A stretch of DNA of 64,000 bases from a phage: the NCBI GenBank assembly GCA_036253495.1, contig GCA_036253495.1_4125.1; one strand, written 5' to 3'. Position numbers and translations under genes: made by a program. A model generated the notes under the pieces. That model saw only the letters and a list, made by a program, of their open reading frames with translations, was not told where the DNA came from and ran no database searches. Positions within the stretch are counted from its first letter, which is position 1. The number at the start of each line of letters is the position of its first letter. This document shows, in pieces, positions 14,253 through 48,920 of the stretch.

Positions 14253-14465
14253 ATGATAACTATCAATTACTTTTCACTATGCTTTGTTTATTTTGTTGTT
14301 GTATTTCTAGCAGTTGTAGCGTACAATAATATTAAATGTATATATAAAATTATCAAAAACAAAGAGAAATTCAATGGATGGATGATATATCACATTGTCA
14401 TCTCGGTTGTGTGTATCTTATTTGTATACGATTTGAGTTCATTAGGTACAGTAGGTAAGCTATGA
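14253..14465 (+). CDS. small membrane protein
   Basis: 70 aa, hydrophobic; stop overlaps start of Sir2 gene. Confidence 0.35.
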   Translation: MITINYFSLCFVYFVVVFLAVVAYNNIKCIYKIIKNKEKFNGWMIYHIVISVVCILFVYDLSSLGTVGKL

Positions 14466-36895: not shown

Positions 36896-37321
36896 ATGCT
36901 GAATTCAACAATTATTGATGCACTACGTGTACTGAATCGCGAAGTTAGCCGTATCCATAAAAGTACTGATCGTTATAAAGTAATGCATGAAATTAAACTA
37001 GAATTAGAAGCTATCAATAAGGGTGAATGGTTCCTTGAACCAGAATACCGTACACGTGGACCAACTGACGTTGAGAAAGCAATTGCAAAATTCATTTCTG
37101 GACGTTATGGTGATGTATCAGAGGCAGATGTACTGATGAATTTACATTTAACCTCCTTAGAAATTGAAGAAAAATTCAAATTTGATTCACTGGACTGGGT
37201 AGAAATGATCATGGAACTTGAAGATGAATTTAAGGTTGAGATCGAAGATAAGTATGAATCTGGAGATACCAGAATCGTGCATCTCGTTGAACATGTACAA
37301 ACAATGATCGATAAACGCTAA
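36896..37321 (+). CDS. hypothetical protein
   Basis: 141 aa ORF. Confidence 0.45.
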   Translation: MLNSTIIDALRVLNREVSRIHKSTDRYKVMHEIKLELEAINKGEWFLEPEYRTRGPTDVEKAIAKFISGRYGDVSEADVLMNLHLTSLEIEEKFKFDSLDWVEMIMELEDEFKVEIEDKYESGDTRIVHLVEHVQTMIDKR

Positions 37322-37366: not shown

Positions 37367-37741
37367 ATGAGTGTACTAGATATTATTGTTTCAAAAGTAC
37401 TGATACCGTTCTGGAAACCAATTGCGTTTGTTCTCCTGATGGCATCATGTACTTTTGGTGGCTGGAAGGCTAATACTTTTTATACTGGGTATAAAGAAAG
37501 TATTGAATTAAAAATAGAGAAGAAAGTAGATGCGGCTTTAAGTAAAATTGAAAGCCAAAATACCAAAAACTATGTAGAAACTAAACAGATAATGCAAAAT
37601 AATGCAAAGGTAATAGAAACTAAAGTACCAGTTATTATTGAGCGTGAAGTGTATAGAAATGTATGTTTAGATGAAGAAGGGGTAAAACTTTTGAATGATC
37701 TAAAACAAAATTCACTTGCAGCTAGAGAGAAATTTAAATGA
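37367..37741 (+). CDS. i-spanin-like membrane protein
   Basis: N-terminal TM helix then charged, coiled-coil-like region; immediately upstream of a lipoprotein gene. Confidence 0.4.
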   Translation: MSVLDIIVSKVLIPFWKPIAFVLLMASCTFGGWKANTFYTGYKESIELKIEKKVDAALSKIESQNTKNYVETKQIMQNNAKVIETKVPVIIEREVYRNVCLDEEGVKLLNDLKQNSLAAREKFK

Positions 37742-38052
37742 AATACATATTAACATTCTTGATTACTTTTATGTTTATCACTGGGTGTTCTAATAAGGTT
37801 CCAGTTCAAGCGTCACCAATAATCACCCAGGAAATCTTATTAGAACGATGCGAAGAAGATACACCAATTCCTAAAAAAATTGTTGTTGACTCACATGGTA
37901 ATAGAGGATATGCTGGTGATGAAATTCTTAACGTTCTGACGCGTTGGGATTCCATGTACAATGAATGTGCACTGAGATATGATGCACTAATTGATACAAT
38001 TCGCAAACTCCAAGACCAAAATATTCGTGTTAACATAAAAGTTAAGGAATAG
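37738..38052 (+). CDS. o-spanin-like lipoprotein
   Basis: Signal peptide with lipobox ITGCS; start overlaps upstream stop. Confidence 0.45.
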   Translation: MKYILTFLITFMFITGCSNKVPVQASPIITQEILLERCEEDTPIPKKIVVDSHGNRGYAGDEILNVLTRWDSMYNECALRYDALIDTIRKLQDQNIRVNIKVKE

Positions 38053-43742: not shown

Positions 43743-44327
43743 ATGGGTAAACTTATTTTCTTTAGTGGGAGTATGTCATCAGGAAAGAGTACACATCTTT
43801 TACAGAACGCATATAACCACAAGAAGAACGGGATGAAAGTCATCTACTTAACGAGTGCATTAGATGATCGTTATGGTACTGGTAAAATAACATCGAGAAT
43901 CGGTATAGAATCTGAAGCTCAAGTTATTCCAAAAGATGACCTAAGCGTTATTCATGACGTAATAAAACTATTACAGGTTGACAATGATTATAATAGTATC
44001 TACGTTGATGAATGTCAGTTTTTAAATCGAAAACAAATTGATTTATTAGCCGATATTGCTGATGAGCATATGGTTGATGTATATTGTTATGGTATTAAAA
44101 CCGATTTTGAATCAAATACATTTGAAGGTTCTCAAAGGTTATTTGAAATAGCAGATGAGATCCATGAATTAAAGAACGTATGTGAAAATCAAAAGTGCGG
44201 AAGAAATGCTATAATGAATGCTCGCATCGTAGATAGTACTGATAAAGTGTTTATTGGTGGTGATGAATCATATAAGAGCCTGTGTAGAAAATGTTATAAA
44301 AACTATATGAGGAATAAAAATGGTTGA
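43743..44327 (+). CDS. tk: thymidine kinase
   Basis: P-loop FFSGSMSSGKST near N-terminus and C-terminal Cys pairs (CENQKCG ... CRKCY); ATG at 43743 after AAGGA. Confidence 0.85.
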   Translation: MGKLIFFSGSMSSGKSTHLLQNAYNHKKNGMKVIYLTSALDDRYGTGKITSRIGIESEAQVIPKDDLSVIHDVIKLLQVDNDYNSIYVDECQFLNRKQIDLLADIADEHMVDVYCYGIKTDFESNTFEGSQRLFEIADEIHELKNVCENQKCGRNAIMNARIVDSTDKVFIGGDESYKSLCRKCYKNYMRNKNG

Positions 44328-44553
44328 TAAACTACTTAAAAATATTGCAGTACGCTTGTTGGATGGTTTTGTTGATACAGTGAAACTACTATTCAGTACT
44401 GCAATGAGCATTTTAGTAATATTGATGTTCGCATTAGTATTACATTTCGTACCAGTATGGATTGTAATTACTGCAATTGTCGTTCTACTTATCATCATCT
44501 CGTATTTCACATATCGTGAAGAATTGCAAGAGTTGCTTGATAAAGATGACTAA
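44320..44553 (+). CDS. small membrane protein
   Basis: 77 aa with two hydrophobic helices. Confidence 0.4.
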   Translation: MVDKLLKNIAVRLLDGFVDTVKLLFSTAMSILVILMFALVLHFVPVWIVITAIVVLLIIISYFTYREELQELLDKDD

Positions 44554-45493: not shown

Positions 45494-45628
45494 ATGATGA
45501 AAGGATTAAAGAAATTTGGATCGGATTTTGTTAAGTGTATTCGCTACACTTATGATGCAAATCCAGAAATGACCGCCATTGTCGGTGTGTTTATTACATT
45601 AGTTGTGTTAAGCTTTGTAGTGGTGTAA
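45494..45628 (+). CDS. small tail-anchored membrane protein (44 aa)
   Basis: Short ORF not in track; SD AAAGGA; C-terminal hydrophobic helix. Confidence 0.3.
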   Translation: MMKGLKKFGSDFVKCIRYTYDANPEMTAIVGVFITLVVLSFVVV

Positions 45629-45631
45629 AAT

Positions 45632-46042
45632 ATGATTGAAATGGAAGGAACTCTGGTGTATGATCCAGACCGTGGCACTATGAAAAAGAAGAAGGACTTC
45701 TGGTTAGTACTGCAACTTCCATTACAGTTGGTTAGATACTACCAGTACTTCATCAGAACTGATCTCCACATTGATGTTAAAGACCCACAATGGGGAGCAC
45801 ACGTCAGTATTGTTCGTGGTGAAGTGCCACCAAATCCAGAGTACTGGAAAAAGTACGATGGTCAAAAAATTAAAATAAAATTCAATCCTGATATTGTTCA
45901 AGTGAAAGATAAAAAGAAACCAGGCTCGTTCTTTATCATAGAGTTCGATGATGAATTCATTGGACACATTCGCAATGAACTAGGATTACAATCAAAGTAC
46001 TTACGTTATCACCTCACAGTAGGGAGAACGTACTACGACTAA
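45632..46042 (+). CDS. hypothetical protein
   Basis: 136 aa ORF. Confidence 0.45.
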   Translation: MIEMEGTLVYDPDRGTMKKKKDFWLVLQLPLQLVRYYQYFIRTDLHIDVKDPQWGAHVSIVRGEVPPNPEYWKKYDGQKIKIKFNPDIVQVKDKKKPGSFFIIEFDDEFIGHIRNELGLQSKYLRYHLTVGRTYYD

Positions 46043-46127
46043 CCTATAGGTTTGTCATACAATTGGCTAAATAAAATGGGTATTAATATACCCATAATTA
46101 TAACCAAAAGAAATATCAAGATTTTAC

Positions 46128-46155
46128 TTGATATGAAATTGAAAGATGCTATACT
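46128..46155 (+). promoter_or_regulatory. sigma70-like promoter (TTGATA-16nt-TATACT)
   Basis: Near-consensus -35 and -10 hexamers in a 250-bp intergenic region upstream of 46290. Confidence 0.4.
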
Positions 46156-46289
46156 ACTTACATGTACAGAATGAAAGTTACCTTTTCAGTACTGAAAGTA
46201 TTGTAGAAAGTCCGATGAGGCTTTTGCAAATGGCCTCATAAGCCCTCTTTGTAATTGCTCATCATAACACGCAAACAAAGGAGGCGTTT

Positions 46290-47216
46290 TTGACAATAGC
46301 GATACAAACACCTAAAACTAAGACAGCTATAGGCTTATTAGTTTCACTTGTTATCATCGCTGCGTTTGGATTTTATGGTTTTTCTCAACATGATCGTGCA
46401 TCATCATCGGGCGAAAGTCAGGTGCACAATTTAAAACCGCAAGTTACACAAATTCAAAAGCAGGAATTACCTAAAGGGTATACACCTAAAGTAGTTCCAG
46501 GCAGCGAGAAACATTATACTGTTGAATACGGTGATAGTTATCATTCGATAGCTAAGAAGTTTAAACCGCATAATGTGTTGTTTGAAGATTACGTTACAGT
46601 ATTGAAGAATATCAATCTTAATGCTAAACTTCATACATCGCAGGGTATCTTTATCCCAACAAAAGAGGATTTGAAAGACGTACTGTTACCTGATGTGGTA
46701 GTACTTTTCGATTATAATGATCCTGAAATAGTAGCACACATCAAAGAAGCTGAAGGTTCAATTGAATTTCAGTCCAAGAACAAAAGACGTTTACTTGGGG
46801 GAAAAGTTGGAGTTCCTTTCTACAATTCAAAATTTCATCCTTATAAGGATATGAAAGGTAACTACACAATCGCATATGGTCACTACCTCGGTCCACGTGA
46901 ATCAGATGCTATAAAATATAGGAATGGTATCACAGTTACTGAAGCCCATAACTTGTTACTCACTGATATGAAAAGAATCAATGATGAATTGATTCTATTA
47001 TTGAAGAAGAAAAATGCAACATATCTCACAGTTGAACAACAAATAATACTATTTGATATGGCATTTACTTTAGGTATTAATAAGCTCAATACTTTTAATA
47101 AGTTATGGAAAAGTGTTGAAAAAAGGAATGCAAAAAAGTTTAAAAAAGAAATTAAGAATTCACTATGGTATAGACAAGTTGGGAAACGTGGGGAATTATT
47201 AGTTAATAATTTGTAA
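46290..47216 (+). CDS. lysozyme-like (T4 lysozyme fold) protein with N-terminal TM anchor, TTG start
   Basis: N-terminal hydrophobic helix; C-terminal region (GNYTIAYGHYLG ... LWYRQVGKRGELLVNNL) resembles T4 lysozyme as recalled; strong SD AAGGAGG before TTG. Confidence 0.5.
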   Translation: MTIAIQTPKTKTAIGLLVSLVIIAAFGFYGFSQHDRASSSGESQVHNLKPQVTQIQKQELPKGYTPKVVPGSEKHYTVEYGDSYHSIAKKFKPHNVLFEDYVTVLKNINLNAKLHTSQGIFIPTKEDLKDVLLPDVVVLFDYNDPEIVAHIKEAEGSIEFQSKNKRRLLGGKVGVPFYNSKFHPYKDMKGNYTIAYGHYLGPRESDAIKYRNGITVTEAHNLLLTDMKRINDELILLLKKKNATYLTVEQQIILFDMAFTLGINKLNTFNKLWKSVEKRNAKKFKKEIKNSLWYRQVGKRGELLVNNL

Positions 47217-47220
47217 TTAT

Positions 47221-47245
47221 AGGGATGTTTAACATCCCTTTTTAA
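47221..47245 (+). terminator. intrinsic terminator (GGGATGTT-T-AACATCCC then TTTTT)
   Basis: Perfect stem plus U-tract. Confidence 0.6.
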
Positions 47246-47260
47246 TCGGAGTTTTAGATT

Positions 47261-47893
47261 ATGCTATATAATATTGGTATTATGGACGTACCTGGTGATG
47301 GTAACATAAAATCTCCTGATAATAAAATATATAAAACATGGTGTTCAATCTTTGTTAGATGCTATTCGCCAATATCACTAAAAAAACGCCCAACGTATGA
47401 ATTAACCGAAGTATGTGATGAATGGAAACTATATTCAAACTTCAAAAAATGGTATATAAGTAATTATATAGAAGGTTACTTTCTTGATAAAGATATTATT
47501 GATGGTACTTCTAATATTTACTCACCATATACTTGCTCGTTTGTTCCAAACATTATAAATTGTTGTATTTTGGATGGGAATTCAAAAAACTCTAATCTAC
47601 CAATTGGTGTTCATTATAGACCGAAAGGGAAAGATATGGTCAACGAATTTTCGAATCCATATCAAGCAAGACTCTGGAAATATAAAAAACGTGTATCACT
47701 CGGATGTTATCCTACACCATATGATGCACATAAAGCGTGGCAATTTGGTAAGAAAGAATACTTATTAGAATTGATTAACGACTATAGTGATAAAGTTACC
47801 CCTGAAGTTGTTGTCGGTTTACAACGTAGAATTGATATACTAACCGATGATATAAAAAAATGTAGAATTACAAATTCAATCAGTAAAATATAG
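47261..47893 (+). CDS. putative HNH-type homing endonuclease-like protein
   Basis: N-terminal W-x2-I-x2-RC and VCDEW..F..F..W pattern typical of phage HNH endonuclease N-terminal modules. Confidence 0.4.
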   Translation: MLYNIGIMDVPGDGNIKSPDNKIYKTWCSIFVRCYSPISLKKRPTYELTEVCDEWKLYSNFKKWYISNYIEGYFLDKDIIDGTSNIYSPYTCSFVPNIINCCILDGNSKNSNLPIGVHYRPKGKDMVNEFSNPYQARLWKYKKRVSLGCYPTPYDAHKAWQFGKKEYLLELINDYSDKVTPEVVVGLQRRIDILTDDIKKCRITNSISKI

Positions 47894-47898
47894 AGAGG

Positions 47899-48237
47899 TT
47901 GTATATGCTAAATCTAGTTATTCAAGGTAATGTTGATATTACTCCAGCAATCCATGACGCAATTCATCAAGAAGCAAACACTCTAAATAAATTTAGTGAT
48001 TCTTCAGTACTGAATATTGGTGTTCATGTGAAAAAAGAGCATAAGACACAGTACGCAGTAACTTTAACATCAGGTGGTAAGTCTGTTACTGCCGATGATG
48101 CAGATTTATACAAGGCGATTGTCGATTCATTCGAAAAAATGGAAACTGTATTCAGTAAAGACAAAAGCATTAAATTGCACCGCCGAAACCATCCAGACCG
48201 TCCAGTTGTAGTTGATGTAACTGACGAAGAAGAGTAA
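47899..48237 (+). CDS. ribosome hibernation promoting factor (HPF/RaiA-family) homolog
   Basis: 112 aa; MLNLVIQGNVDITPAIHDAIHQ... and ...ADDADLYKAIVDSFEKME match HPF/YfiA architecture and length. Confidence 0.6.
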   Translation: MYMLNLVIQGNVDITPAIHDAIHQEANTLNKFSDSSVLNIGVHVKKEHKTQYAVTLTSGGKSVTADDADLYKAIVDSFEKMETVFSKDKSIKLHRRNHPDRPVVVDVTDEEE

Positions 48238-48699: not shown

Positions 48700-48734
48700 A
48701 ATGTATAATTACTTTTTATAACAGAGGTATAGTG

Positions 48735-48920
48735 ATGGAATATACAATAGGTGCAATAGTATGTATCGCAGCATTATTAGGTGGCATTGGTGTGATGATT
48801 TACTTTGATGCAGAACCCAGTACTGAAATGGGTACAACCCTGGAACTCAAACCTGGCATTAAGGTGAACGACTCTTACTGTTACGATCCACATAGTAATA
48901 AGTATGTGATTTGTTTATGA
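48735..48920 (+). CDS. small membrane protein
   Basis: ATG at 48735 five nt after GAGGT; N-terminal TM helix. Confidence 0.4.
   Translation: MEYTIGAIVCIAALLGGIGVMIYFDAEPSTEMGTTLELKPGIKVNDSYCYDPHSNKYVICL

What the first reader, a model, noticed from the sequence alone, without database searches (positions are those of the whole stretch)
46290..47216. Lysozyme-fold protein with an N-terminal membrane anchor and a ~170-aa linker, encoded far from the spanin pair
The C-terminal region resembles the T4 lysozyme fold, but the protein starts with a hydrophobic helix and a long intervening region and uses a TTG start with a strong SD. A spanin-like pair (TM protein 37367-37741 and lipoprotein 37738-38052) lies 9 kb upstream. 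The anchor may be a signal-arrest-release sequence for holin-independent export, or this may be a virion-associated or regulatory lysozyme.
Basis: partly seen in the sequence, partly recalled or inferred. Interest (0 to 1): 0.4.

Follow-up and report, generated by a model that had tools for sequence, protein, structure and literature searches.

The report
Membrane-anchored LysM lysozyme of a jumbo phage
This gene encodes a cell-wall-cutting enzyme that a giant E. coli phage most likely exports and tethers to the host's inner membrane to help burst the cell; the protein has already been described in related phages, but a conserved RNA structure in front of it appears to be new.

Summary
The ORF (46290-47216, +, TTG start, AAGGAGG Shine-Dalgarno) is real. 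The window is an Asteriusvirus-like (Rak2-like) jumbo coliphage. The protein has four parts:
- an N-terminal hydrophobic anchor (residues 13-31);
- a 41-residue disordered linker;
- a divergent LysM domain (73-123);
- a T4-type GH24 lysozyme (145-308) with invariant E155, D187 and T193.

So the "~170-aa linker" is mostly folded domains. Orthologs (CBB_187, 121Q gp532) were described in 2017 with this architecture, as a suspected SAR (signal-anchor-release) endolysin that is toxic when induced. phAPEC6 gp293 was not found in virions.

My tests lean away from a classical SAR domain:
- the anchor is more hydrophobic than four verified SAR domains;
- about 113 residues separate it from the catalytic domain;
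- distant relatives carry 80-95-aa cytoplasmic N-domains.

Best reading: a Sec-exported, membrane-tethered, non-virion endolysin acting with the Rz/Rz1-like spanins 8 kb upstream. A second, soluble GH24 paralog remains a rival.

New here:
- a single-copy, covarying RNA leader (46182-46240) with a Shine-Dalgarno-sequestering helix, found only in front of this gene;
- a mosaic 3' end linked to an inserted HNH endonuclease gene.

Protein: already known. Leader: apparently undescribed. Mechanism untested.

The parts
46128..46155 (+). Sigma-70-like promoter match (TTGATA, 16-nt spacer, TG-extended TATACT) upstream of the leader
   Evidence: 10 of 12 matches, TG before the -10. Conserved in A4, 121Q and phAPEC6. 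K64-1 has TTGACA-17-TAAAAT at the equivalent place (read). This is a consensus match only; promoter-like sites are not enriched over shuffles in this region.
46182..46240 (+). Conserved structured leader. It has hairpin H1 (46187-46203), the motif GUAGAAAGUCC (46203-46213), and hairpin H2 (46215-46239, loop containing GCAA). An alternative helix H2' pairs the motif with the 5' arm of H2.
   Evidence: Covariance model R1 hits once per locus, always directly 5' of the ortholog, and only once in the 64-kb window. In the alignment, 91.6% of cells are paired and 9 of 17 pairs show compensatory changes; 0 of 500 shuffles reach these values, and slid controls give 34-55% paired. H2' is 98.8% paired but nearly invariant. 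The H2 and H2' states are close in predicted energy in many of the leaders. No Rfam family matches. The motif-plus-H2 pattern is found in only 14 IMG/VR contigs, once each, all of them contigs that carry the ortholog.
46242..46285 (+). Helix that sequesters the Shine-Dalgarno sequence: GCC.UCUUUGU...ACAAAGG.GGC
   Evidence: P(SD paired) is 0.83, against 0.56 +/- 0.17 for shuffled upstream sequence (7% of shuffles reach it). The effect is stronger in Eneladus-like leaders (0.83-1.0, with a C-G to U-A compensation). It is absent in the L010/L013/L015/L049 clade and in K64-1. It is not an outlier among genes of the window (rank 12 of 84).
46278..46284 (+). Shine-Dalgarno sequence AAGGAGG, 5 nt before the TTG start
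   Evidence: The non-ATG start (TTG or GTG) is conserved at this position in most orthologs.
46290..47216 (+). CDS for the membrane-anchored LysM-GH24 lysozyme (308 aa)
46326..46382 (+). N-terminal transmembrane anchor (residues 13-31), predicted N-in/C-out. K9 and K11 precede it; the flank after it has net charge -1.
   Evidence: A hydrophobic segment is present in all 39 orthologs and in all 10 distant family members. TMHMM called it a transmembrane domain in CBB_187 (PMC5259590). Caveat: AlphaFold2 gave no confident helix here (pLDDT about 31-36).
46383..46505 (+). Disordered Ser/Gln/Pro/Lys-rich linker (residues 32-72)
   Evidence: pLDDT below 50. Length and sequence vary among orthologs.
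46506..46658 (+). Divergent LysM-like peptidoglycan-binding domain (residues 73-123)
   Evidence: Beta-alpha-alpha-beta fold at pLDDT above 90. Pfam LysM is matched in 32 of 39 orthologs, best E=9.6e-6; the window protein scores 12.7 bits against a cut-off of 20.9. RefSeq names 121Q gp532 'LysM peptidoglycan-binding domain-containing protein'.
46722..47213 (+). GH24 (T4-type) lysozyme domain (residues 145-308). Catalytic codons: E155 (46752-46754), D187 (46848-46850), T193 (46866-46868).
   Evidence: D187 and T193 align to T4 lysozyme D20 and T26. E155, D187 and T193 are invariant. The Glu-Asp spacing is 31 residues, against 8 in the canonical motif (PMC9239132). The phage's own paralogs have 21.
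46850..47898 (+). Mosaic segment relative to phage A4: divergent 3' third of the lysozyme gene, a terminator, and a free-standing HNH endonuclease gene (47261-47893)
   Evidence: gene nt 1-400 are 100% identical to A4 (99% for 401-500), nt 601-927 about 65%, and the downstream HPF gene 333/339. HNH call: PHROG 953, E=6e-59. The HNH gene is absent in A4 and 121Q.
47221..47239 (+). Intrinsic-terminator-like hairpin (AGGGATGTTTAACATCCCT followed by TTTTT) just after the stop codon
   Evidence: It is absent in A4, where the lysozyme and HPF genes are 14 nt apart.
37367..37741 (+). i-spanin (Rz-like): N-terminal transmembrane domain plus a periplasmic domain
   Evidence: PHROG 1152, E=7.9e-26. 121Q gp511 is annotated 'Rz-like spanin'.
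37738..38052 (+). o-spanin candidate: lipoprotein with lipobox FITG|C, overlapping the i-spanin gene by 4 nt
   Evidence: sequence. Weak Pfam LysC/Rz1-like match, 19.3 bits against a cut-off of 27.

Best explanation
The gene encodes a non-virion, Sec-exported muramidase of a Rak2-like jumbo phage.

Proposed mechanism:
- The N-terminal hydrophobic segment inserts N-in/C-out and tethers the protein to the inner membrane.
- A roughly 40-residue flexible linker lets the periplasmic part reach the sacculus.
- The LysM-like module binds the glycan strands.
- The GH24 domain (E155, D187, T193) cleaves them.
- The Rz/Rz1-like spanin pair 8 kb upstream then disrupts the outer membrane.

Export does not need a holin, so timing must be set elsewhere. 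One option is membrane release on depolarisation (the SAR case). The other, which I think somewhat more likely given the anchor's composition and the long spacer, is control of when and how much protein is made. The weak TTG start, the Shine-Dalgarno-sequestering helix and the conserved gene-specific leader RNA fit this second option.

Shown here:
- the domain architecture, the fold and the conservation of the catalytic residues;
- hydropathy of the anchor and its conservation;
- absence from virion proteomes of orthologs (from the literature);
- covariation in the leader.

Inferred: export, topology, role in lysis, any regulation by the leader.
For: Architecture and fold.

Anchor. A hydrophobic segment is kept even in relatives of about 31-44% identity.

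Not virion-associated: phAPEC6 gp293 was not detected by mass spectrometry, while the hub lysozyme gp241 was. CBB_187 is not mentioned outside the cell-wall-enzyme section of the CBB paper's main text, which includes its structural-protein table.

Lytic on its own: Buttimer et al. 2017 report that inducing CBB_187 inhibits E. coli growth and that it could not be cloned for expression (data not shown in the paper). They also predict it to be the endolysin.

No T holin or RI antiholin was recognised in RaK2 (PMC3622015). No holin-family hit was found among the small membrane ORFs of the window.

Spanins are present.

Against a classical SAR domain and for a stable tether:
- Gly/Ala/Ser/Thr fraction 0.36 against 0.42-0.63, and strongly hydrophobic fraction 0.56 against 0.32-0.42, compared with P1 Lyz, 21 R, Mu gp22 and phiKMV gp45.
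- Mean of 3.5 basic residues before the transmembrane domain; added basic residues lock SAR domains in the bilayer (PMC9239132).
- Conserved 80-95-aa cytoplasmic N-domains in P0063, P0064 and P0066.

Control of expression: the leader element, Shine-Dalgarno sequestration, and the precedent of T4 gene e (PMC3014915).
Against: - There is no experiment on this protein or any ortholog beyond an unpublished toxicity remark.
- The same phages encode a soluble 162-aa GH24 paralog (121Q gp586). Its UE-S1 ortholog LysUE1 lyses EDTA-permeabilised cells (PMC12805682). It could be the true endolysin.
- AlphaFold2 did not model the anchor as a confident helix, and I had no dedicated transmembrane or signal-peptide predictor.
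- The anchor is still fairly rich in Gly and Ala (37%), so SAR behaviour is not excluded. Two distant relatives look as if they have cleavable signal peptides.
- Shine-Dalgarno sequestration is significant in only about 10 of 17 leaders and is not exceptional within the window (rank 12 of 84).
- Forcing the alternative leader helix does not free the Shine-Dalgarno sequence in silico.
- The transcription start and the expression timing are unknown.
Confidence: 0.6

Rival explanations
1. Classical SAR endolysin. The N-terminal segment is a signal-anchor-release domain. The enzyme accumulates tethered and harmless. It is then released into the periplasm when a still unidentified pinholin or holin collapses the proton motive force.
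For: - It has an N-terminal transmembrane domain with two basic residues before it and several Gly/Ala residues.
- This conjecture is already in the literature for CBB_187.
- Small membrane proteins of unknown function lie nearby: 44320-44553 (77 aa, two transmembrane domains), 45494-45628 and 48732-48920.
Against: - The anchor is less rich in weakly hydrophobic residues and more hydrophobic than four verified SAR domains.
- The family has a mean of 3.5 N-terminal basic residues.
- About 113 residues, including a folded LysM domain, lie between the anchor and the catalytic domain, so tethering cannot disturb the active site as in P1 Lyz or 21 R.
- Distant members have large cytoplasmic N-domains that could not cross the membrane.
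- No holin or pinholin family hit was found. No T holin was recognised in RaK2.
Confidence: 0.2
2. Accessory cell-wall enzyme. The soluble 162-aa GH24 paralog is the real endolysin and needs a holin. The anchored LysM-lysozyme does something else at the inner face of the sacculus: local peptidoglycan thinning or remodelling during infection, or a back-up that speeds lysis.
For: - There are three GH24 paralogs per genome.
- LysUE1, the soluble paralog, is active in vitro. It was not confirmed as a structural protein in Rak2-like phages.
- The anchored gene lies among nucleotide- and RNA-metabolism genes (thymidine kinase, HPF, CCA-adding enzyme, Nudix, glutaredoxin), not in a late or lysis cluster. 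It follows a sigma-70-like promoter.
Against: - The soluble paralog sits inside the baseplate module, between the gp25-like and hub genes. That suggests a tail role.
- No holin is known in these phages.
- Induction of the anchored ortholog alone is toxic.
- The catalytic residues are invariant over a wide family.
Confidence: 0.25
3. Secreted periplasmic lysozyme. The N-terminal segment is a cleavable signal peptide, and the mature soluble LysM-GH24 enzyme is released into the periplasm, as in endolysins that carry signal peptides.
For: Two distant relatives (P0060, P0062) have N-termini that look like cleavable signal peptides.
Against: - In the window protein and its close orthologs the hydrophobic core is about 19 residues long.
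- No small-x-small cleavage motif follows it (GFYGF/SQHD).
- Other relatives have long cytoplasmic N-domains.
- No signal-peptide predictor was available to me.
Confidence: 0.07
4. Virion-associated lysozyme used at infection, like T4 gp5 or phiKMV gp36.
For: The best non-family sequence matches of the catalytic domain are tail and internal-virion lysozymes: PHROG 13211 at 1.5e-16, PHROG 2083, and the PDB entry 'Internal virion protein' at 7.8e-7.
Against: - It was not detected in the phAPEC6 virion proteome, and is not mentioned outside the cell-wall-enzyme section of the CBB paper's main text, including its structural-protein table.
- It has a membrane anchor instead of a hub or needle domain.
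- The phage already has a gp5-like hub lysozyme.
- The similarity is explained by paralogy within the genome (28-33% identity).
Confidence: 0.03

Closest known systems
CBB_187, 121Q gp532, RaK2 ORF029 (called gp506 in the CBB paper), GAP32 gp180, phAPEC6 gp293, K64-1 gp034: orthologs in Rak2-like jumbo phages
   Same: Direct orthologs with 46-86% identity over the full length. They share the same three-part architecture (transmembrane anchor, LysM-like domain, lysozyme), described by Buttimer et al. 2017. Synteny is conserved.
   Different: The window copy is a mosaic. Its 3' third is only about 62% identical at protein level to its otherwise 100%-identical relative A4, and it is followed by its own terminator and an HNH endonuclease gene.
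SAR endolysins (P1 Lyz, phage 21 R, Mu gp22, phiKMV gp45, N4 gp61)
   Same: A lysozyme with an N-terminal membrane segment, and so Sec-dependent, holin-independent export. It partners with a two-component spanin. Several of these enzymes are GH24 too.
   Different: Here the anchor is more hydrophobic. A 41-residue linker, a LysM domain and a connector (about 113 residues) separate it from the catalytic domain. The gene is not in a lysis cassette with a pinholin. Release has not been tested.
T4 lysozyme (gp e) and the T4 gp5 lysozyme domain (GH24)
   Same: Same fold. Asp and Thr of the triad align. There is a possible parallel to the gene e leader hairpin that blocks translation of early transcripts (PMC3014915).
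   Different: T4 gp e is soluble and needs the T holin. Here the Glu-Asp spacing is 31 rather than 8 residues. No late-promoter motif (TATAAATA) lies inside the leader.
Modular Gram-negative endolysins with a cell-wall-binding domain (phiKZ KZ144, EL EL188)
   Same: An N-terminal peptidoglycan-binding module is fused to a C-terminal muralytic domain. This is unusual for phages of Gram-negative hosts, as noted.
   Different: Those enzymes are cytoplasmic and soluble, use a different binding domain (not LysM) and a transglycosylase domain, and have no membrane anchor (otherwise from my own knowledge).

Membership tests
GH24 / T4-type phage lysozyme (Pfam PF00959) | Profile match above the curated cut-off | tested here: met
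   35.2 bits against 22.3. All 39 orthologs match. The profile against PDB gives T4 lysozyme at E about 1e-12.
GH24 / T4-type phage lysozyme (Pfam PF00959) | T4-lysozyme fold | tested here: met
   AlphaFold2 model with pLDDT above 90 for residues 145-308. Foldseek against T4 lysozyme: probability 1.00, target TM-score 0.6-0.65.
GH24 / T4-type phage lysozyme (Pfam PF00959) | Catalytic triad Glu-X8-Asp-X5-Thr | tested here: inconclusive
   D187-X5-T193 aligns to T4 lysozyme D20 and T26 and is invariant. An invariant E155-G156 ends the N-terminal helix, as E11-G12 does in T4 lysozyme. But the Glu-Asp spacing is 31 (21 in the phage's paralogs), and the sequence profiles do not align the Glu. Its equivalence is inferred.
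GH24 / T4-type phage lysozyme (Pfam PF00959) | Muramidase activity | not testable with these tools
   No assay exists for this protein or any ortholog. Only the 162-aa paralog LysUE1 has been assayed.
LysM domain (Pfam PF01476) | Profile match | tested here: inconclusive
   The window protein scores 12.7 bits against a cut-off of 20.9 (E=0.12, residues 76-92 only). 32 of 39 orthologs match at E<=0.1, best 9.6e-6.
LysM domain (Pfam PF01476) | Beta-alpha-alpha-beta fold of about 45-50 residues | tested here: met
   Strand 75-77, helix 84-91, helix 98-108, strand 119-121, at pLDDT above 90.
SAR (signal-anchor-release) endolysin | N-terminal transmembrane segment with a short, basic cytoplasmic tail, N-in/C-out | tested here: met
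   Residues 13-31, Kyte-Doolittle mean 2.31, K9 and K11 upstream, acidic flank downstream. Hydropathy only; no dedicated predictor was used.
SAR (signal-anchor-release) endolysin | Segment made mostly of weakly hydrophobic residues (Gly, Ala, Ser, Thr), about half or more | tested here: not met
   Window protein 0.37; family mean 0.36 (range 0.21-0.47). P1 Lyz 0.53, 21 R 0.63, Mu gp22 0.42, phiKMV gp45 0.58. Strongly hydrophobic fraction 0.58 against 0.32-0.42. Reference sequences were verified; the criterion comes from PMC9239132. The difference is one of degree.
SAR (signal-anchor-release) endolysin | Catalytic domain follows the SAR domain directly and is inactive while tethered | tested here: not met
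   113 residues, including a folded LysM domain, lie between the anchor and the start of the GH24 domain; 123 residues lie before the catalytic Glu.
SAR (signal-anchor-release) endolysin | Release from the membrane on depolarisation, or complementation by a pinholin (the definitive test according to PMC9239132) | not testable with these tools
   Needs expression with and without energy poisons or the S21 pinholin, followed by fractionation.
Two-component spanin (Rz/Rz1 type), for the pair at 37367-38052 | i-spanin: N-terminal transmembrane domain plus periplasmic domain, with family match | tested here: met
   PHROG 1152 'Rz-like spanin', E=7.9e-26. Transmembrane segment in residues 6-24.
Two-component spanin (Rz/Rz1 type), for the pair at 37367-38052 | o-spanin: outer-membrane lipoprotein (lipobox plus Cys) encoded next to or within the i-spanin gene | tested here: met
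   MKYILTFLITFMFITG|C has a lipobox. The genes overlap by 4 nt. The Pfam LysC/Rz1-like match is weak, at 19.3 bits below the 27-bit cut-off.
T4 gene e-type translational control (leader hairpin masks the ribosome-binding site of early transcripts) | Shine-Dalgarno sequence and/or start codon held in a conserved helix | tested here: inconclusive
   Window P(SD paired) is 0.83 against 0.56 for shuffles (7% reach it). About 10 of 17 leaders are clearly above shuffles, with compensatory changes in Eneladus-like leaders; two clades show nothing. Within the window the gene ranks 12 of 84.
T4 gene e-type translational control (leader hairpin masks the ribosome-binding site of early transcripts) | Late promoter inside the 5' strand of the helix, so that late transcripts lack the inhibitory arm | tested here: not met
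   There is no TATAAATA or ATAAATA between 46100 and 46290 (read). The late motif reported for CBB is ATAAATA. Transcription start sites are unknown.
Virion-associated (tail or internal) lysozyme | Present in purified virions, or fused to a hub or internal-virion-protein domain | tested here: not met
   The ortholog was not detected in the phAPEC6 virion proteome, and is not mentioned outside the cell-wall-enzyme section of the CBB paper's main text, including its structural-protein table. No hub or needle domain is present. This rests on the literature for orthologs, not on this phage.

The most novel reading that the evidence does not exclude
The enzyme is a permanently membrane-tethered, holin-independent endolysin. 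Its lethal activity is timed after transcription by a previously undescribed, gene-specific leader RNA that can adopt two structures. The leader consists of hairpin H1, the motif GUAGAAAGUCC, and a GCAA-loop hairpin H2 that alternates with helix H2'. It is coupled in most clades to a helix that masks the Shine-Dalgarno sequence. It is conserved as a single copy in at least four clades of Rak2-like jumbo phages. It may respond to a phage or host factor, or to a metabolite.
Probability: 0.2. Interest if true: 0.7.

Novelty: already known. Interest (0 to 1): 0.35.

Why it matters
How Rak2-like jumbo phages lyse their hosts is unknown. No holin has been recognised, and each genome carries three GH24 paralogs.

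If the anchored LysM-lysozyme is the endolysin and stays tethered, that would be a lysis strategy distinct from both the holin-endolysin and the pinholin-SAR paradigms. Timing would then be set by gene expression rather than by membrane depolarisation.

The conserved leader gives a concrete, mutable handle to test this. The protein itself is not new, so the value lies in the mechanism and in the RNA element.

Practically, the LysM-GH24 periplasmic part is a candidate modular lysin against Gram-negative bacteria.

Tried and rejected
1. **Strand-competition switch.** I proposed that forming H2' frees the 3' arm of H2, which then captures the anti-Shine-Dalgarno strand and opens the ribosome-binding site. 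The 3' arm does resemble the Shine-Dalgarno-proximal sequence in each clade. But constrained folding shows P(SD paired) essentially unchanged between the H2 and H2' states in most leaders. Not supported in silico.

2. **Shine-Dalgarno occlusion as an outlier.** Within the window the gene ranks 12 of 84 for the Shine-Dalgarno sequence and 6 of 84 for the whole initiation region. This is suggestive only.

3. **GUAGAAAGUCC as a general phage promoter class.** Rejected. There is one exact copy in the window and near-matches are at chance level. The covariance model hits once per locus, and the pattern occurs once per 350-kb genome in IMG/VR.

4. **Known RNA family.** There are no Rfam hits for the window leader. 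An Eneladus-like leader gives only a chance-level hit, E=1.8.

5. **Holin search.** Small membrane ORFs of the window (44320-44553, 45494-45628, 48732-48920, 14253-14465) match no holin family in PHROGs or Pfam. The rest of the genome is outside the window and was not scanned.

6. **Transcriptome data for a Rak2-like phage.** None found that covers this gene. None of PA5oct's listed peptidoglycan-degrading proteins is described with this architecture.

7. **MAFFT alignment of whole leaders across clades.** It was structurally inconsistent in H1 and in the 3' part. I re-aligned with a covariance model instead. That alignment is fitted to the model, which favours the structure.

8. **Technical failures.** One region request exceeded the size limit.
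Full report
**What the window is.** The region is 96% identical at DNA level to Escherichia phage A4 and about 83% identical to 121Q, PBECO4, phAPEC6 and other Asteriusvirus jumbo phages of about 350 kb. A protein 100% identical to the one in question is in NCBI, on a 352-kb contig filed under E. coli O157. G+C content is 35%.

**The observation.**
- The ORF 46290-47216 (+) encodes 308 aa from a TTG start. AAGGAGG lies at 46278-46284, 5 nt upstream.
- Orthologs start at the same position with TTG, GTG or, in K64-1, ATG.
- A single strongly hydrophobic stretch occupies residues 13-31, with a Kyte-Doolittle mean of 2.31 over 19 residues.
- Pfam finds Phage_lysozyme (35.2 bits against a cut-off of 22.3, residues 183-301) and a sub-threshold LysM match.
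- PHROGs gives a full-length match to family 15410 (unknown function). It gives partial matches to tail-hub, endolysin and internal-virion lysozymes.
- An AlphaFold2 model built on 39 orthologs is confident (pLDDT above 90) for residues 72-308 and unstructured for 1-71.
- The model shows a beta-alpha-alpha-beta unit at residues 75-121, followed by an alpha-rich domain from 145. Foldseek matches that domain to T4 lysozyme with probability 1.00 and target TM-score about 0.62.
- LysM is matched by 32 of 39 orthologs.
- D187 and T193 align to T4 lysozyme D20 and T26. Together with E155-G156 they are invariant in all 39 sequences.
- The Glu-Asp spacing is 31 residues instead of the canonical 8 (PMC9239132). 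The phage's own paralogs have 21.

**The spanin pair.**
- The ORF at 37367-37741 matches PHROG 'Rz-like spanin' at E=8e-26.
- The ORF at 37738-38052 starts with a lipobox (FITG|C) and overlaps the first by 4 nt.

**What is already known.**
- Buttimer et al. 2017 (PMC5259590) describe CBB_187 and its homologs GAP32 gp180, 121Q gp532 and a RaK2 homolog. They report an N-terminal transmembrane domain, a weak LysM-like wall-binding domain and a C-terminal lysozyme.
- They predict it to be the endolysin and note the resemblance to signal-arrest-release endolysins.
[quoted passage not shown] - In phAPEC6, of the two predicted lysozymes only the 96-kDa hub protein gp241 was found in virions. gp293 was not, and gp293 is the ortholog of this gene.
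- CBB_187 is not mentioned in the CBB paper's main text outside the cell-wall-enzyme section; that text includes the structural-protein table.
- A different, soluble 162-aa GH24 protein of these phages (LysUE1 of UE-S1, 96% similar to 121Q gp586) was purified. It lyses cells in the presence of EDTA (PMC12805682).
- I confirmed that 121Q gp586 and the hub gp587 are paralogs of the window protein's catalytic domain, at 33% and 28% identity. They share the IKExEG motif and an enlarged Glu-Asp loop.

**SAR domain or stable anchor?** The criteria come from Chamblee et al. 2022 (PMC9239132) and the N4 preprint:
- a weakly hydrophobic segment of about 20 residues, half or more of them Gly/Ala/Ser/Thr;
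- one or two basic residues before it, with extra basic residues locking it in the bilayer;
- a tethered form that is inactive;
- release by a pinholin, which is the definitive test.

I verified four reference sequences and compared compositions.

| Measure | Four reference SAR domains | Window protein | Family of 39 |
|---|---|---|---|
| Gly/Ala/Ser/Thr fraction | 0.42-0.63 | 0.37 | mean 0.36 (0.21-0.47) |
| Strongly hydrophobic fraction | 0.32-0.42 | 0.58 | mean 0.56 |
| Basic residues before the segment | one or two (typical) | 2 | mean 3.5 |

- The anchor is separated from the catalytic domain by about 113 residues. The refolding-based inactivation known for P1 Lyz and 21 R cannot operate in the same way.
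- An exhaustive search of 1.84 billion cluster representatives found only about a dozen clusters that share the LysM-plus-lysozyme part.
- All ten that I read keep a hydrophobic segment before it. Three of them have an extra cytoplasmic N-domain of 80-95 residues. Two of those N-domains are significantly similar to each other (33% identity, E=5e-11).
- Such a domain could not be pulled through the membrane, so at least in that branch the protein is a stable bitopic membrane protein. Two others look like cleavable signal peptides.
- The common denominator of the family is export. SAR behaviour in the window protein is neither shown nor excluded, and the evidence leans against it.

**How it most likely works.**
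- Inferred: the segment inserts N-in/C-out, because K9 and K11 are on the N side and the other flank has net charge -1.
- Inferred: the 41-residue linker plus the LysM module let the catalytic domain reach and hold the sacculus, and the GH24 domain cuts the glycan. The spanins then finish the envelope.
- Such an enzyme is dangerous as soon as it is exported, so its synthesis should be tightly controlled. Several features fit that: the conserved weak start codon, a helix that pairs the Shine-Dalgarno sequence, and a conserved leader.

**The leader (found in passing).** Aligning the intergenic region upstream of the gene in A4, 121Q, phAPEC6, fHe-Yen9-03 and K64-1 showed a conserved block across three genera. 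I added 17 IMG/VR and 12 metagenomic loci. The anatomy is:
- hairpin H1, with variable sequence and often a UUCG or CUUG loop;
- the motif GUAGAAAGUCC;
- hairpin H2, about 10 bp with a GCAA loop.

A covariance model of these 65 positions hits once in every ortholog-bearing locus, always directly 5' of the gene. It hits once in the 64-kb window, at 46182-46240.

| Measure | Observed | Controls |
|---|---|---|
| Cells paired | 91.6% | slid registers 34-55% |
| Pairs with compensatory changes | 9 of 17 | 0 of 500 shuffles reach the observed values |
| Covariation score | 0.345 | slid registers 0.05-0.08 |

- The alignment is fitted to the model, which favours the structure.
- RNAalifold proposed an alternative helix, H2', between the motif and the 5' arm of H2. 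It is compatible in 98.8% of cells, but both strands are nearly invariant.
- In the shared strand, the columns that covary in H2 lie outside H2' (column 51) or stay wobble-compatible with it (column 53).
- The two states are close in predicted energy in many of the leaders.
- That pattern suggests a two-state element, but it is not proof.
- The pattern motif-N(3-12)-CUUUGUGCA occurs in only 14 of 2.9 million IMG/VR contigs, once each. All 14 are contigs that carry the ortholog.
- Rfam has no matching family.

**Shine-Dalgarno sequestration.**
- Downstream of the leader, the Shine-Dalgarno sequence is paired in the predicted structure of the window leader (46242-46285).
- It is paired very strongly in Eneladus-like leaders (UCCUUAUUACGC with GUGUAAUAAGGA), with a C-G to U-A compensation.
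- In two clades the pairing is not above shuffles.
- Within the window this gene is not an outlier.
- Forcing H2' does not open the Shine-Dalgarno sequence in silico.
- The closest precedent is T4 gene e, where a leader hairpin blocks translation of early read-through transcripts (PMC3014915). Here I find no late-promoter motif inside the helix.
- A sigma-70-like promoter (TTGATA, 16-nt spacer, TG-extended TATACT) precedes the leader in Asteriusviruses. K64-1 has a near-consensus promoter there (read).
- That would fit early or middle transcription of a gene whose product must appear late. However, consensus matches are not evidence of function and are not enriched in this region.

**Mosaic 3' end (found in passing).**
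- Compared with A4, nucleotides 1-400 of the gene are 100% identical (99% for 401-500), and nucleotides 601-927 only about 65% identical.
- Then come a terminator and a free-standing HNH endonuclease gene (47261-47893) that A4 and 121Q lack.
- The next gene, an HPF/RaiA homolog, is again 98% identical.
- This looks like a co-conversion tract left by homing of the endonuclease gene.
- In A4 and 121Q the lysozyme and HPF genes are 14-16 nt apart with no terminator. The monocistronic appearance in the window is therefore specific to this phage.

**Verdict.**
Export by an N-terminal anchor is supported, the SAR label is doubtful, and the virion alternative is contradicted by published proteomes.
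- The protein and its unusual architecture are already in the literature, so the finding itself is not novel.
- The mechanism of lysis in these phages is still untested. The gene-specific structured leader appears undescribed and gives a direct experimental handle.

Noticed in passing
window 46182-46285 (+): A conserved, single-copy structured leader lies directly 5' of the lysozyme gene. It has hairpin H1, the motif GUAGAAAGUCC and a GCAA-loop hairpin H2, with an alternative helix H2' that is close to H2 in predicted energy in many leaders. A helix that pairs the Shine-Dalgarno sequence follows. The element is conserved, with compensatory changes, in Asterius-, Eneladus- and Alcyoneus-like phages and metagenomic relatives. 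No Rfam family matches. Function unknown.
   Followed up: partly
window 46850-47898 (+); compare L001 12560-12941: The 3' third of the lysozyme gene is only about 65% identical to phage A4, while the first 400 nt are 100% identical (99% for 401-500) and the next gene is 98% identical. The divergent tract ends with a terminator and a free-standing HNH endonuclease gene (47261-47893) that A4 and 121Q lack. This looks like a homing-associated co-conversion tract.
   Followed up: partly
window 47899-48237 (+): The gene after the lysozyme (after the HNH insertion) is an HPF/RaiA ribosome-hibernation-factor homolog (Pfam Ribosomal_S30AE, 4e-10). In A4 and 121Q it follows the lysozyme gene by 14-16 nt with no terminator, so the two are probably co-transcribed there.
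   Followed up: partly
window 45494-45628 (+): A 44-aa protein with a C-terminal transmembrane segment (PHROG 37784, unknown function) lies two genes upstream of the lysozyme. The synteny is kept as far as K64-1, where gp031 is annotated 'membrane protein'. A role in lysis control is possible but untested.
   Followed up: no
window 44320-44553 (+) and 48732-48920 (+): Two small membrane proteins of unknown function lie within 2 kb of the lysozyme gene. One is 77 aa with two transmembrane segments and an acidic C-tail (PHROG 22328). The other is 62 aa with one Gly/Ala-rich segment (PHROG 4189). Their size and topology resemble holins or pinholins, but no holin family matches.
   Followed up: partly
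window 45632-46042 (+): The 136-aa protein just upstream of the leader contains two H-x-(S/T)-x motifs (HVSI, HLTV), as in 2H phosphoesterases (LigT-like). Pfam gives no hit. Noted by eye only. A CCA-adding enzyme and a Nudix hydrolase lie a few genes downstream in the relatives.
   Followed up: no
window 36896-37321 (+): An acyl-carrier-protein-like gene (PHROG 5934, 5e-11; weak Pfam PP-binding match with the DSLD motif) lies immediately upstream of the spanin pair.
   Followed up: no
window 45628-45632; compare L001 11132-11335: The 204-bp gene A4_526, which is also present in 121Q and K64-1, is missing from the window between the 44-aa membrane-protein gene and the 136-aa gene.
   Followed up: no
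window 46043-46125 (+): An 83-bp stretch present in the window and A4 but absent in 121Q and phAPEC6 lies between the upstream gene and the promoter-like site. It contains a palindrome (AATGGGTATTAATATACCCAT) that scores as a terminator on the minus strand.
   Followed up: no
database proteins P0046, P0047, P0007 (orthologs): Some database gene calls extend the ortholog upstream. For example, the extension MQTWPHCSPVCQGF... is a translation of the leader hairpin region. These N-terminal extensions are calling artefacts. They differ from the conserved 80-95-aa N-domains of P0063, P0064 and P0066.
   Followed up: partly
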